The notes under the pieces: model-generated | What the model was told of the DNA's origin: nothing | The model's input: the letters and a program-made list of their open reading frames with translations, nothing else | Databases searched by the model: none | In this document: positions 18,112 to 18,636 of the stretch, in pieces | Position numbering within the stretch: position 1 is the stretch's first letter | Layout: every line of letters begins with the position of its first letter | Program-made: the position numbers and the translations under genes | Origin: Solemya velum | Lineage: Eukaryota | Length of the DNA: 21,241 bases | Assembly (NCBI GenBank): GCA_048127485.1 | Contig: JBHNWI010000006.1 | Coordinates: 46,345,538 to 46,366,778 of the forward strand | Reading direction: 5' to 3'

Positions 18112-18636
18112 ATGACGATTCGGATAACTAACGTGGTATATACTGGCGATTTGGGATGCGAGATCGATCTTCGAACATTGACTATGACATCGACGCATAT
18201 CATATACGATCCCCGTCGTTTTACGGGAGCCGTGTGGAAAAATCCCGTCATCGGTGGATGCTGTCTCGTGTTTCCTAACGGCAAACTATCCGTGGTGGGA
18301 AAAGCCGATAATCTGGGGGCCGGCAGAACAAGAGTTCGCCGTTATGCACGATCGATTCAGAGAAAGGGATTCAAAGTTCGACTAGTACGGCTAAAGTTAG
18401 CCACGGCGTCGGCTTTCTTCGAGGTGTATGGGTACCTTTCGTTGGACTTATTAGTGAGAGATCTAGGAGCTAGGTACGAACCGGAACTGTTTCCGGCCGC
18501 CATGTTGAAGAGAGATGGTTTGAACTTTACTTGTTTCTATAACGGTAAAATACTCGTGACGGGTATCAAAAGACAGAAGGACTTTGACACTGTTGTCTTT
18601 CCCGTCTACGTCGAGCTCAAATTATTATCACGGTGA
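18112..18636 (+). CDS. TBP-family protein of 174 aa. It has only the TBP core (two repeats) and no long N-terminal tail, so it resembles the TBP-like factor (TLF/TRF2, TBPL1) type.
   Basis: Alignment by eye to the TBP core: ITNVV..LGC.IDL, Y.P.RF, GK...G, RRYARSIQRKGFKV (compare RLARSLQKLGFQV in TBPL1), YEPELFPAA (compare YEPELFPGL in TBP), NGKILVTGIK. Continuous frame. An AATAAA sits at about 18702, roughly 65 nt after the stop. Confidence 0.7.
   Translation: MTIRITNVVYTGDLGCEIDLRTLTMTSTHIIYDPRRFTGAVWKNPVIGGCCLVFPNGKLSVVGKADNLGAGRTRVRRYARSIQRKGFKVRLVRLKLATASAFFEVYGYLSLDLLVRDLGARYEPELFPAAMLKRDGLNFTCFYNGKILVTGIKRQKDFDTVVFPVYVELKLLSR

What the first reader, a model, noticed from the sequence alone, without database searches (positions are those of the whole stretch)
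18112..18636. Intact, minimal TBP-core ORF with uATG-rich leader
The ORF encodes only the two-repeat saddle domain. It begins M-T-I-R-ITNVV, right at the start of repeat 1. Its hallmark residues sit between TBP and TLF: YEPELFPAA like TBP, RRYARSIQRKGFKV like TBPL1.

The upstream 300 bp from the TATA box contain several upstream ATGs and overlapping small ORFs (17846, 17940). That is unusual for a housekeeping factor. It hints either at translational control or at a viral-style transcript.
Basis: partly seen in the sequence, partly recalled or inferred. Interest (0 to 1): 0.6.

Follow-up and report, generated by a model that had tools for sequence, protein, structure and literature searches.

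The report
Virus-like transposon carrying its own TBP
The ORF is a real, intact TATA-binding-protein gene, but it belongs to a decayed Maverick/Polinton virus-like element in a bivalve genome rather than to the host, which suggests these elements bring their own core transcription factor.

Summary
ORF 18112-18636 (+) is intact and encodes 174 aa, consisting only of the two-repeat TBP saddle: Pfam TBP E=5e-22; AlphaFold pLDDT 94.7; TM 0.90 to human TBP core.

- The gene is neither host TBP nor TLF, and it is not a retrocopy. It belongs to a separate clade of 160-180 aa "minimal" TBPs (97/100 bootstrap; about 100 clusters at 50% identity).
- In related contigs this clade sits among Maverick/Polinton genes: protein-primed PolB, rve-chromo integrase, A32-like ATPase and adenain-like protease. 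A PC4-like gene often lies just upstream.
- The window holds the same order: TBP, a small helical ORF, then the ATPase. The ATPase is a pseudogene with at least 4 frameshifts, so this copy is a decayed endogenous fragment, probably in Solemya velum.
- The leader is not uATG-rich: 2 ATGs against about 6 expected. One ATG opens a conserved 47-codon membrane-type ORF that overlaps the TBP start.
- All four DNA-kinking Phe and the EPEL stirrup are TBP-like, not TLF-like. dN/dS against a paralog is 0.18.

Inferred function: a virus-encoded core-promoter factor that recruits host Pol II to element promoters.

Published precedent found: one unexplained "TBP" label in a figure legend of Starrett et al. 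2021.

The parts
17696..17788 (+). Candidate Pol II promoter: two inverted CCAAT boxes (ATTGG at 17696 and 17729) and TATAAAAAAG at 17779-17788. Its use as a promoter is not shown.
   Evidence: Sequence, motif scan. Related elements carry CCAAT/ATTGG and/or TGACGTCA followed by TATAAAAG 50-110 nt upstream of the first gene of the PC4/TBP unit. TATAWAW occurs there in 10 of 19 loci against a 14% background. This region lies outside the block shared with paralog L003.
17954..17981 (.). Left edge of the sequence shared with other copies. Four independent short-read contigs at 99% identity all start at 17954. Homology to the 73%-identical paralog starts at 17981. The PC4-like gene that precedes this point in the paralog is absent from the window.
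17988..18131 (+). Conserved small upstream ORF of 47 codons: a hydrophobic N-terminus followed by YRIRREAxEAAEDF. It has the better Kozak context (GCCATG) and overlaps the TBP ATG by 20 nt.
   Evidence: Homologous 41-48 codon ORFs occur in L003, L018, L019, L020 and L021. Their stop codons abut or overlap the TBP ATG (ATGA or TAGATG). dN/dS against L003 is 0.35 over 38 codons, which has low power.
18112..18636 (+). Minimal TBP gene: 174 aa, two repeats, no N-terminal domain, intact.
   Evidence: Family alignment. dN/dS 0.18 (dS 0.90) against paralog L003. Residues F37, F54, F127 and F142 match the TBP Phe positions.
18703..18708 (+). AATAAA poly(A) signal, 67 nt after the TBP stop codon. It is conserved in the paralog, and homology to the paralog ends just after it.
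   Evidence: AATAAA or ATTAAA lies within 150 nt downstream of TBP in 11 of 19 related loci, against a 15% background.
18749..18765 (+). TATAAGAGGATAAGAGG: two copies of the element's YRTAAGARR gene-junction or promoter motif, 44 and 36 nt upstream of the next ATG.
18795..19121 (+). Small ORF of 108 aa, predicted helical, function unknown. It is a homolog of the 115-126 aa ORF that follows TBP in related elements.
   Evidence: tblastn against L001 10538-10915 gives E 8e-12. The family is listed. There is no Pfam hit. The single-sequence AlphaFold2 model is unusable, with pLDDT 44.
19111..19303 (.). Tandem array of CACCGGCGTGACACC-type units (periods 19, 25 and 44; about 7 copies), between the small ORF and the ATPase promoter motif.
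19352..19360 (+). TATAAGAAG junction or promoter motif, 51 nt upstream of the ATPase ATG.
19405..20154 (+). A32/IVa2-like genome-packaging ATPase with an N-terminal C2H2 finger. It is a pseudogene here, with at least 4 frameshifts (near 19480, 19790, 19895 and 19966) and in-frame stops.
   Evidence: Intact homologs match Pox_A32 in 6 of 6 cases, best E 3.6e-7.
21138..21219 (-). An 82-bp block that occurs in inverted orientation about 240 bp downstream of TBP in the paralogous contigs L003-L009. It is a repeat or rearrangement marker of unknown nature.

Best explanation
Shown. ORF 18112-18636 encodes a genuine TBP-fold protein. It belongs to a distinct clade of 160-180 aa 'minimal' TBPs carried as a cargo gene by Maverick/Polinton (adintovirus-like) virus-like elements. 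Hosts include bivalves, and many copies come from unassigned marine metagenome contigs. The window holds a truncated, decaying endogenous copy, most likely in the protobranch clam Solemya velum. Its layout is: candidate CCAAT-CCAAT-TATA promoter; small membrane-type ORF; TBP; AATAAA; TAAGA motif; small helical ORF; tandem repeats; TAAGA motif; packaging-ATPase pseudogene; then the window ends.

Inferred mechanism. In the active element, TBP is expressed from a canonical host-type Pol II promoter, often together with a PC4-like protein, and so would be an early gene. It would bind and bend promoter DNA through the four conserved Phe. It would recruit host TFIIB and Pol II through the conserved EPEL stirrup, and possibly TFIIA (the RRYAR helix is also conserved). 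It lacks the N-terminal domain. This would give the element its own core-promoter factor. One possible target is the class of element genes marked by the strand-specific YRTAAGARR motif. The family-specific N-to-T and V-to-S changes in repeat 2 might alter sequence specificity.

Confidence by layer: about 0.9 that it is a Maverick/Polinton-borne TBP, about 0.45 for the transcription-factor mechanism, and about 0.25 for the specific TBP-to-TAAGA link. Whether this particular copy is still expressed or useful to the host is unknown.
For: Fold and family.

Synteny with element genes:
- The window order TBP, then small ORF, then ATPase equals the order in L001.
- In 31 related loci TBP is embedded among the following genes: protein-primed PolB (DNA_pol_B_2, E 2.7e-51); rve+chromo integrase (E 3e-11 and 2e-7); A32-like ATPase (6 of 6 members); adenain-like protease (Peptidase_C5 in 7 of 8 members; PDB profile hits to ASFV S273R at 1.4e-11 and adenain at 3e-6); and a PC4-like gene (E 2.9e-23).

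Separate clade:
- A neighbour-joining split of minimal TBPs from TBP plus TBPL1 has 97/100 bootstrap support.
- Identity is 27-29% to TBP cores and 23-27% to TBPL1.
- 107 representative clusters score E<=1e-30, and nearly all are 160-180 aa.
- One member is a Tegillarca granosa (bivalve) gene model whose UniRef name is 'Integrase catalytic domain-containing protein'.

Functional residues: F37, F54, F127 and F142 are Phe, as in 20 of 20 TBPs, whereas TBPL1 has x/W/H/F. N7, V9 and T150 are kept, and the RRYAR and EPELFP motifs are invariant.

Selection: dN/dS is 0.18 at dS 0.90 against a paralog from the same host data.

Host: short-read contigs 99% identical to the window, and contigs deposited as 'Solemya velum gill symbiont'.

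Promoter classes:
- TAAGA lies within 100 nt upstream of 43 of 86 non-TBP element genes, against a 9.6% background (p 1e-21), but upstream of only 1 of 19 TBP genes.
- In strictly intergenic DNA the density is 6.4 per kb on the sense strand against 0.35 per kb antisense.
- Canonical TATAAAAG, with CCAAT and CRE sites, lies upstream of the PC4/TBP unit.

Decay: the ATPase is frameshifted at least 4 times, at sites that are not homopolymers.
Against: - No PolB, integrase, capsid gene, terminal inverted repeat or target-site duplication lies inside the window. It ends 1.1 kb after the ATPase, so the element assignment rests on synteny with other contigs.
- The putative major capsid protein (cluster c7, about 415 aa) could not be verified by sequence.
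- There is no expression or binding data. The link between this TBP and any promoter motif is pure inference.
- TAAGA sits only 20-45 nt from the ATG. That position fits an initiator at least as well as a TBP site.
- This copy lacks the PC4 partner, and its native upstream region is not shared with the paralog.
- TBP and both small ORFs are intact while the adjacent ATPase is broken. This hints at something other than simple neutral decay.
- The host assignment rests on record names and run identifiers that I could not verify.
Confidence: 0.72

Rival explanations
1. Host co-option. The element is dead, but the TBP gene, with its two flanking small ORFs, has been domesticated. It now serves the clam as an extra, possibly tissue- or germline-specific, TBP paralog driven by the captured TATA promoter at 17779.
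For: TBP (525 nt), the upstream 47-codon ORF and the downstream 108-codon ORF carry no disruptions, while the adjacent 750-nt ATPase has at least 4 frameshifts. At a uniform rate about 5 disruptions would be expected in those roughly 1 kb, giving P(0) of about 0.005; this is my own calculation from those calls. dN/dS is 0.18 against a paralog. At least three intact 174-aa paralogs exist in the same host data. A canonical CCAAT/TATA promoter lies upstream.
Against: Purifying selection between paralogs is equally expected if they diverged as active viruses. The protein database holds only called ORFs, so broken copies would not be seen. The family is multi-copy and patchy. No orthologous host locus was shown. 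dN/dS among the 99%-identical alleles is 0.65, based on 3 changes, so it has no power.
Confidence: 0.15
2. Decoy or host shut-off factor. The minimal TBP does not activate element promoters. Instead it competes with host TBP/TFIID for TATA boxes, or sequesters TFIIA and TFIIB, damping host or antiviral transcription.
For: The protein keeps the TFIIB-stirrup residues and the DNA-contacting Phe but has no N-terminal domain. The TBP gene itself sits behind a canonical TATA promoter, which host TBP can serve.
Against: Nothing in the sequence distinguishes this from activation. The frequent pairing with a PC4-like coactivator-type protein and the existence of a second, non-TATA promoter class in the element fit a positive role better.
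Confidence: 0.15
3. Replication or packaging architecture. The TBP-fold protein bends DNA at the element's termini or origin for protein-primed replication or packaging. The PC4-like protein would act as the single-strand DNA-binding protein, as DBP does in adenovirus, and neither would be a transcription factor.
For: PC4 is an ssDNA-binding fold, and it is the most frequent neighbour of TBP. Elements that use protein-primed PolB need an ssDNA-binding protein and origin-bending factors; this is general knowledge of adenovirus and phi29 replication, not tested here.
Against: The TFIIB-contact stirrup (EPEL) and the RRYAR helix are invariant across the family. Such conservation would be unnecessary for a purely architectural role. 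No terminal repeats were available to look for binding sites.
Confidence: 0.1
4. Ordinary host TBP or TLF gene, or a processed retrocopy of one.
For: The gene is intronless and has an AATAAA 67 nt after the stop codon.
Against: Identity to TBP and to TBPL1 is only 23-29%. The protein lies in a separate clade with 97/100 support. There is no poly(A) tract or target-site duplication. The gene order is conserved with ATPase, integrase, PolB and protease genes in unrelated contigs.
Confidence: 0.02

Closest known systems
Cellular TBP core (Pfam PF00352; e.g. human 1CDW, yeast 1YTB)
   Same: Two-repeat saddle, TM 0.90 and rmsd 2.0 A. All four DNA-kinking Phe, N/V in repeat 1, T150, the RRYAR helix and the EPELF stirrup are kept.
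   Different: Only 27-29% identical. No N-terminal domain at all. Repeat 2 has T98 and S100 where TBP has the invariant N and V, and T62 is replaced. There is a 2-residue deletion before strand S3'. It is encoded by a mobile virus-like element, is multi-copy, and forms a separate clade.
TBPL1 / TLF / TRF2
   Same: TBP-fold paralog of similar core size.
   Different: TBPL1 has lost three of the four Phe (x/W/H/F), while the window protein keeps all four. Identity is 23-27%. The two do not cluster together.
Maverick/Polinton elements and adintoviruses (Starrett et al. 2021, PMC8502044)
   Same: Related loci carry protein-primed PolB, rve-family integrase, A32/IVa2-like ATPase and adenain-like protease in a compact element of about 12-15 kb. 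[quoted passage not shown]
   Different: That TBP label is not discussed anywhere in the paper. No paper in the searchable library links TBP or PC4 to Mavericks, Polintons or adintoviruses. Here the gene defines a large family in animal-associated (bivalve) elements, with conserved partners: a PC4-like gene, a small membrane-type ORF and a small helical ORF.
Beta/gamma-herpesvirus late-gene 'viral TBP' (EBV BcRF1, HCMV UL87, KSHV ORF24); from my own knowledge, not tested here
   Same: A functional analogy only. A nuclear DNA virus without its own RNA polymerase encodes a TBP-like factor, which directs host Pol II to a non-canonical late-promoter box.
   Different: The herpesvirus proteins are large and show no detectable sequence similarity to TBP. 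The window protein is a bona fide TBP homolog. No temporal expression data exist for Mavericks.
TBP-like proteins of giant viruses (e.g. mimivirus, ASFV pB263R); from my own knowledge. Two IMG/VR viral contigs, L014 and L015, encode TBPs 26% identical to the window protein
   Same: Virus-encoded TBP-fold proteins.
   Different: Those viruses carry their own multisubunit RNA polymerase and replicate wholly or partly in the cytoplasm. The elements here have no polymerase subunit genes in the loci examined. The L014 and L015 proteins are no closer to the window protein than cellular TBPs are.
Baculovirus late promoter/initiator (A/G/T)TAAG; from my own knowledge
   Same: A short, strand-specific TAAG-containing motif lies a few tens of nt upstream of structural-gene ATGs, often overlapping the previous gene's stop codon.
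   Different: Baculovirus TAAG is read by a virus-encoded RNA polymerase, and none is present here. The resemblance may be coincidental.

Membership tests
TBP family (PF00352) | Two tandem TBP repeats above the curated profile threshold | tested here: met
   E 5.1e-22, 78 bits against a cutoff of 22.9, with 2 matched stretches.
TBP family (PF00352) | Saddle fold: a 10-stranded sheet with 4 helices and pseudo-twofold symmetry | tested here: met
   pLDDT 94.7 with secondary-structure order S-H-S-S-S-H repeated twice. TM 0.90 to 1cdw_A. The top 44 PDB hits are all TBPs.
TBP family (PF00352) | Four Phe that kink the TATA box (yeast F99, F116, F190, F207) | tested here: met
   F37, F54, F127 and F142 align to them. 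Within the minimal family these positions are Phe in 24, 23, 25 and 17 of 27 sequences, plus 6 Tyr at the fourth position.
TBP family (PF00352) | Minor-groove Asn/Val pair in both repeats (yeast N69/V71 and N159/V161) | tested here: not met
   Repeat 1 is kept (N7, V9). Repeat 2 has T98 and S100, and this change is family-wide: T in 24 of 27 and S or T in 27 of 27. The protein is still a TBP homolog, but DNA specificity may differ.
TBP family (PF00352) | TFIIB-contacting C-terminal stirrup (E-P-E-L) | tested here: met
   Y122-E-P-E-L-F-P128 is present; E125 and F127 are invariant, and P124, L126 and P128 are at least 90% conserved. Binding itself was not tested.
TBP family (PF00352) | Sequence-specific TATA binding and nucleation of the pre-initiation complex | not testable with these tools
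   Requires EMSA or SELEX, plus in vitro transcription.
TBPL1 / TLF / TRF2 | Replacement of the DNA-kinking Phe (x/W/H/F pattern) and clustering with TBPL1 orthologs | tested here: not met
   The window protein has F/F/F/F. TBPL1 sequences from vertebrate, lamprey, amphioxus, tick, snail and ant have x/W/H/F. The separate clade has 97/100 support.
Maverick/Polinton (adintovirus-like) element | [quoted passage not shown] | tested here: inconclusive
   Absent from the window, which ends at 21241. Present next to TBP homologs in L002, L021, L023 and L029-L031; the L029 protein of 1555 aa matches DNA_pol_B_2 at E 2.7e-51.
Maverick/Polinton (adintovirus-like) element | Retrovirus-like (rve) integrase | tested here: inconclusive
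   Absent from the window. Present in related loci, with rve at E 3.3e-11 and Chromo at E 2e-7. A Tegillarca gene model with a minimal-TBP match carries an integrase-domain name in UniRef.
Maverick/Polinton (adintovirus-like) element | FtsK/A32/IVa2-type packaging ATPase | tested here: met
   Window 19405-20154 is homologous to the ATPases of L001, L002, L021, L023 and L029 (E down to 1e-30) but is frameshifted. The intact homologs match Pox_A32 in 6 of 6 cases. The window N-terminal fragment hits Adeno_IVa2 and Pox_A32 weakly.
Maverick/Polinton (adintovirus-like) element | Adenain-like cysteine protease | tested here: inconclusive
   Not in the window. In related loci, Peptidase_C5 matches 7 of 8 members (best 2e-5). 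The PDB profile hits ASFV S273R at 1.4e-11 and adenain at 3.2e-6.
Maverick/Polinton (adintovirus-like) element | Double jelly-roll major capsid protein and penton protein | tested here: inconclusive
   Conserved ORFs of about 415 aa (c7) and about 140 aa (c6) occupy the expected positions. They have no hit in Pfam, PHROGs or the PDB sequence search.
Maverick/Polinton (adintovirus-like) element | Terminal inverted repeats and 5-6 bp target-site duplication | not tested
   Only one side of the element can lie in the window. No inverted partner was found within the window.
Processed retrocopy of a host mRNA | Poly(A) remnant, flanking target-site duplication, and close identity to an intron-bearing parent gene | tested here: not met
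   There is no A-tract after the AATAAA at 18703, either in the window or in paralog L003. The closest cellular TBPs are below 30% identical. The neighbouring genes are co-inherited.

The most novel reading that the evidence does not exclude
A lineage of animal (bivalve-associated) Maverick/Polinton viruses encodes its own orthogonal Pol II core-promoter system. An early transcription unit, read from a canonical CCAAT/CRE/TATAAAAG promoter, produces a minimal TBP, usually with a PC4-like cofactor and a small membrane-type peptide that is translationally coupled to TBP. This altered-specificity TBP (repeat 2 N-to-T and V-to-S) then switches host Pol II onto the element's YRTAAGARR-marked genes. 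That would be a true-homolog counterpart of the herpesvirus late-gene 'viral TBP' strategy. Copies such as the one in this window, intact inside a dead element, could be raw material for new host TBP paralogs.
Probability: 0.25. Interest if true: 0.8.

Novelty: new variant of a known kind. Interest (0 to 1): 0.62.

Why it matters
Mavericks/Polintons are regarded as ancestors or close kin of adenoviruses, virophages and giant viruses, yet how they get their genes transcribed is essentially unknown. A conserved, selected, bona fide TBP homolog has several consequences:

- It is often paired with a PC4-like gene, in elements that lack any RNA polymerase. This suggests that some of these elements do not rely only on host promoter recognition, and it provides a concrete protein and two candidate promoter classes to test.
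- It adds a data point on how virus-encoded TBPs, as in giant viruses, may have been acquired.
- It shows a route by which animal genomes can gain extra TBP-family genes.

There is also a practical point. Contigs of this family are deposited under a bacterial symbiont's name and are auto-annotated as 'TFIID TATA-box-binding protein', which can mislead both metagenome binning and host gene catalogues.

Tried and rejected
1. Retrocopy of host TLF or TBP: rejected.

2. uATG enrichment: rejected by count against shuffles.

3. A PC4-like gene or other element genes upstream of 17954 in the window: tblastn with all neighbour ORFs found nothing.

4. Verifying the putative capsid protein c7: no hit in Pfam, PHROGs or a PDB profile search. 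Locus-derived sequences are not accepted by the structure tool.

5. The last large protein search, on the small ORF 18795-19118, returned only the same locus. Its single-sequence AlphaFold2 model has pLDDT 44 and was not used.

6. TAAGA enrichment as a coding artefact of Lys/Arg-rich C-terminal tails (CGT-AAG-AAG, TAT-AAG-AAG): partly true for some occurrences. The motif nonetheless stays 18-fold strand-biased, and 5-fold over coding density, in strictly intergenic DNA.

7. An A/T-rich box about 30 nt upstream of TAAGA: none found.

8. IMG/VR viral contigs: only two distant TBPs at 26% identity, not this family.

9. An exact look-up of paralog P0002 found no contig.

10. My first neighbour-ORF clustering chained PC4-like ORFs to PolB, and the small ORF to integrase, by single linkage. 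Direct BLAST showed these are separate families.

11. In notes I first mislabelled F139 as the fourth Phe. The correct equivalent of yeast F207 is F142.
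Full report
1. THE OBSERVATION

- It matches Pfam TBP at E=5.1e-22 with two repeat matches.
- It matches yeast and human TBP cores in the PDB at about 3e-18.
- An AlphaFold2 model built on 18 family members has mean pLDDT 94.7.
- That model superposes on the human TBP core bound to DNA with TM 0.90 and rmsd 2.0 A. The first 44 PDB hits are all TBPs.
- Only four residues precede strand S1, so this is a bare saddle.

The TATA box at 17779 exists. The 'uATG-rich leader' does not.
- There are two ATGs in the 333 nt between the TATA box and the start codon, against about 6 expected.

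2. WHAT IT IS

The window looks eukaryotic. ORFs are sparse, there is a reverse-transcriptase ORF and a B-box exon, and G+C steps up from about 0.36 to 0.45-0.50 at about 17500.

Closest proteins:
- The closest proteins are all 165-200 aa.
- The top three are 99%, 84% and 73% identical. They come from short-read assemblies, and from NCBI contigs labelled 'Solemya velum gill symbiont'.
- Four such contigs are 99% identical to window 17954-19115.
- The window is therefore most likely S. velum host DNA, and those 'symbiont' contigs are host contamination. This is an inference from record names.

Context in longer contigs:
- On a 4.15-Mb contig (L001) the TBP homolog is flanked by BIR, PC4-like and A32-like ATPase ORFs.
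- On a 14.5-kb contig (L002) it is flanked by a PC4-like ORF, an rve+chromo integrase and a DNA_pol_B_2 polymerase.
- tblastn shows that the window has the same order as L001: TBP, then a 108-aa ORF (18795-19121), then the ATPase (19405-20154).

A metagenome scan returned 80 loci, of which about 30 carry TBPs at 38-52% identity. Clustering their neighbouring ORFs gave a recurrent gene set:
- A protein-primed PolB of up to 1555 aa (Pfam E 2.7e-51).
- An rve+chromo integrase.
- An A32-like ATPase (Pox_A32 in 6 of 6 members).
- An adenain-like protease (Peptidase_C5 in 7 of 8 members; PDB profile hits to ASFV S273R at 1.4e-11 and adenain at 3e-6).
- A PC4-like protein (E 2.9e-23).
- Conserved ORFs of about 415 aa and about 140 aa, in the positions expected for capsid proteins but not verifiable by sequence.
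Supporting searches are.

This is the Maverick/Polinton (adintovirus-like) gene complement. The TBP gene is therefore a cargo gene of such elements, not a host housekeeping gene.

3. STATE OF THE COPY IN THE WINDOW

- The ATPase is broken by at least four frameshifts and by in-frame stops, at sites that are not homopolymer runs.
- The PC4-like gene that precedes the small ORF and TBP in the 73% paralog (L003) is missing. Homology to that paralog runs only from 17981 to just past the AATAAA at 18703-18708.
- All four 99%-identical short-read contigs begin at 17954.
- The window ends 1.1 kb after the ATPase, so PolB, integrase, capsid genes, TIRs and target-site duplications cannot be assessed here.

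This is a truncated, decaying endogenous copy in which TBP and its two small flanking ORFs are still open.

4. THE PROTEIN

Placement relative to cellular TBPs:
- I aligned it with human and yeast TBP cores. One search prints most of the yeast core; the human core was not checked against a printed sequence.
- I also aligned it with database TBPL1 sequences from vertebrate, amphioxus, snail and ant. They were retrieved, which also confirmed my recalled human TBPL1 at 100% identity.
- The window protein is 27-29% identical to TBP and 23-27% identical to TBPL1.
- A neighbour-joining tree separates the minimal TBPs from TBP plus TBPL1 in 97 of 100 bootstraps.

Functional positions:
- The four Phe that kink the TATA box are all Phe here (F37, F54, F127, F142). 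They are Phe in 20 of 20 TBPs, whereas TBPL1 has x/W/H/F.
- The repeat-1 Asn/Val pair, T150, the RRYAR helix and the EPELFP stirrup are conserved.
- The repeat-2 Asn/Val pair is replaced family-wide by Thr and Ser/Thr.

The protein looks competent for TBP-like DNA bending and TFIIB contact, possibly with altered sequence preference. 'Between TBP and TLF' is therefore not an apt description.

Family size and selection:
- An exhaustive profile search finds 107 clusters (at 50% identity) with E<=1e-30. Nearly all are 160-180 aa, and below that score the hits grade into canonical long TBPs.
- One named member is a Tegillarca granosa (blood clam) gene model whose UniRef name is 'Integrase catalytic domain-containing protein'.
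- dN/dS between the window gene and its 73% paralog is 0.18 at dS 0.90.

5. THE 'LEADER'

- The ATG at 17988 has a good Kozak context, GCCATG. It opens a 47-codon ORF with a hydrophobic N-terminus followed by YRIRREAxEAAEDF, and this ORF overlaps the TBP ATG.
- Homologous 41-48-codon ORFs precede TBP in L003 and L018-L021, whose TBPs are only about 50% identical to the window's. Their stop codons abut or overlap the TBP ATG (TAGATG or ATGA).
- What looked like uORF clutter is therefore one conserved small gene in a virus-style overlapping pair with TBP.
- TBP translation probably depends on leaky scanning or on termination and reinitiation. This is an inference.

6. PROMOTERS (noticed while studying related loci)

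A strand-specific motif, YRTAAGARR, is enriched upstream of element genes.
- In 19 de-duplicated locus groups it lies within 100 nt of the ATG for 43 of 86 non-TBP genes, against a 9.6% background (p about 1e-21). For TBP genes the figure is 1 of 19 (Fisher p 2e-4).
- Some occurrences are simply Lys/Arg codons of the upstream gene.
- In strictly intergenic DNA the density is still 6.4 per kb on the sense strand, against 0.35 per kb antisense and 1.2 per kb in coding sequence. The motif often incorporates the previous gene's TAA stop about 35 nt before the next ATG.
- The window has this motif 44 and 36 nt before the small ORF, and 51 nt before the ATPase.

The PC4/small-ORF/TBP unit is different.
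- It is preceded by canonical TATAAAAG, often with CCAAT and TGACGTCA sites.
- The window's ATTGG-ATTGG-TATAAAAAAG at 17696-17788 has the same style.
- It may therefore be the element's own early promoter, or a captured one. I could not decide which.

Poly(A) signals follow TBP in 11 of 19 loci, against a 15% background.

7. MECHANISM

Shown:
- A TBP-fold protein with TBP-type DNA-contact and TFIIB-contact residues.
- It is under purifying selection.
- It is encoded by Maverick/Polinton-type elements that have no RNA polymerase genes in the loci examined.

Inferred:
- It acts as an element-encoded core-promoter factor that nucleates host Pol II initiation on element DNA, probably together with the PC4-like protein.
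- Because its own gene sits behind a host-type TATA promoter while many other element genes carry a different motif, it may mediate an early-to-late switch.

I give the transcription-factor role about 0.45 and the specific TAAGA link about 0.25. TAAGA lies so close to the ATG that an initiator role fits at least as well.

Rivals:
- A decoy that shuts off host transcription.
- An architectural role in replication, with PC4 acting as the ssDNA-binding protein.
- For this particular copy, host domestication. The contrast between three intact ORFs and a shattered ATPase is suggestive (my rough P is about 0.005 under uniform decay) but not decisive.

8. COMPARISON WITH WHAT IS KNOWN, AND NOVELTY

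- Virus-encoded TBP-like proteins are known from giant viruses.
- Beta- and gamma-herpesviruses use a non-homologous 'viral TBP' for late genes. Both of these statements are from my own knowledge.
[quoted passage not shown] 2021. It appears in a section on non-animal datasets and is not discussed.
- No paper pairs TBP or PC4 with these elements.

I therefore class this as a new variant of a known kind. It is a bona fide TBP homolog that forms a large, essentially undescribed family in animal-associated virus-like transposons, with conserved partner genes.

The copy in this window is itself an unremarkable decayed insertion. The interest lies in the family it reveals.

Noticed in passing
Related loci L001, L002, L016-L045; window 18749-18765 and 19352-19360: A strand-specific motif, YRTAAGARR, lies 20-60 nt upstream of many element genes and often includes the previous gene's TAA stop. 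In intergenic DNA its density is 6.4 per kb sense against 0.35 per kb antisense. It is nearly absent upstream of TBP genes (1 of 19). It resembles the baculovirus late TAAG, but these elements have no viral RNA polymerase.
   Followed up: partly
Window 17988-18131; L003 310-435; L018 2268-2405; L019 11-157; L020 1061-1207; L021 1121-1267: A conserved 41-48-codon ORF, with a hydrophobic N-terminus followed by a basic helix of the form ..REAREAA.., lies immediately upstream of TBP. Its stop codon abuts or overlaps the TBP ATG, which suggests a translationally coupled gene pair.
   Followed up: partly
L021 443-934, L016 971-1453, L018 1700-2188, L002 4077-4733, L001 9064-9645; L003 2-175: A PC4-like gene (Pfam PC4, E 2.9e-23) sits directly upstream of TBP in many elements, so the two may form a transcription or ssDNA-binding module. 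It is absent from the window copy. L001 also carries a BIR (IAP-repeat) ORF at 8558-9004.
   Followed up: partly
Window 19111-19303 and 11568-11641: A tandem array of CACCGGCGTGACACC-type units (periods 19, 25 and 44) lies between the small ORF and the ATPase. A related 30-bp repeat lies 7.5 kb away, near the retrotransposon.
   Followed up: no
Window 19405-20154: The packaging ATPase carries an N-terminal C2H2 zinc finger, also seen in L001 and L002. In the window it is a pseudogene with at least 4 frameshifts, while the three ORFs to its left are intact.
   Followed up: yes
Window 21138-21219; L003 1238-1325 and the same block in L004-L009: An 82-89-bp block is shared with the paralogous TBP contigs but in inverted orientation, and there it lies only about 240 bp from TBP. 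It is either a rearrangement or an independent small repeat.
   Followed up: no
Window 12319-14013 (-), 14050-14517 (-); 2650-2939 vs 14731-14988: A 564-aa reverse-transcriptase ORF (RVT_1, E 4e-36) with an adjacent 155-aa ORF indicates a separate retrotransposon. A 290-bp segment next to it is 79% identical to a segment at 2650-2939.
   Followed up: no
Window 4651-5238 (+): An ORF with a B-box zinc finger (E 6e-8), probably an exon of a TRIM-like host gene.
   Followed up: no
Window 149-258: A 110-nt near-perfect palindrome; the self-match on the opposite strand is 98% identical.
   Followed up: no
P0002, P0003; L009 (MPQA01000063.1, GCA_002020225.1): Contigs deposited as 'Solemya velum gill symbiont' encode this eukaryotic virus-like TBP. 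They are almost certainly host or element DNA mis-binned into bacterial assemblies.
   Followed up: partly
P0149 (Penstemon davidsonii KAK4492228.1), P0214 (Acer saccharum KAK0600559.1), P0150 (Tegillarca granosa KAJ8307840.1): Two plant-labelled proteins score far higher against the minimal-TBP profile (E 7e-65 and 6e-37, with multiple stretches) than canonical TBPs do. This could reflect contamination, transfer, or a plant-side relative. The clam entry is a gene model with a minimal-TBP match and an integrase-domain name in UniRef.
   Followed up: no
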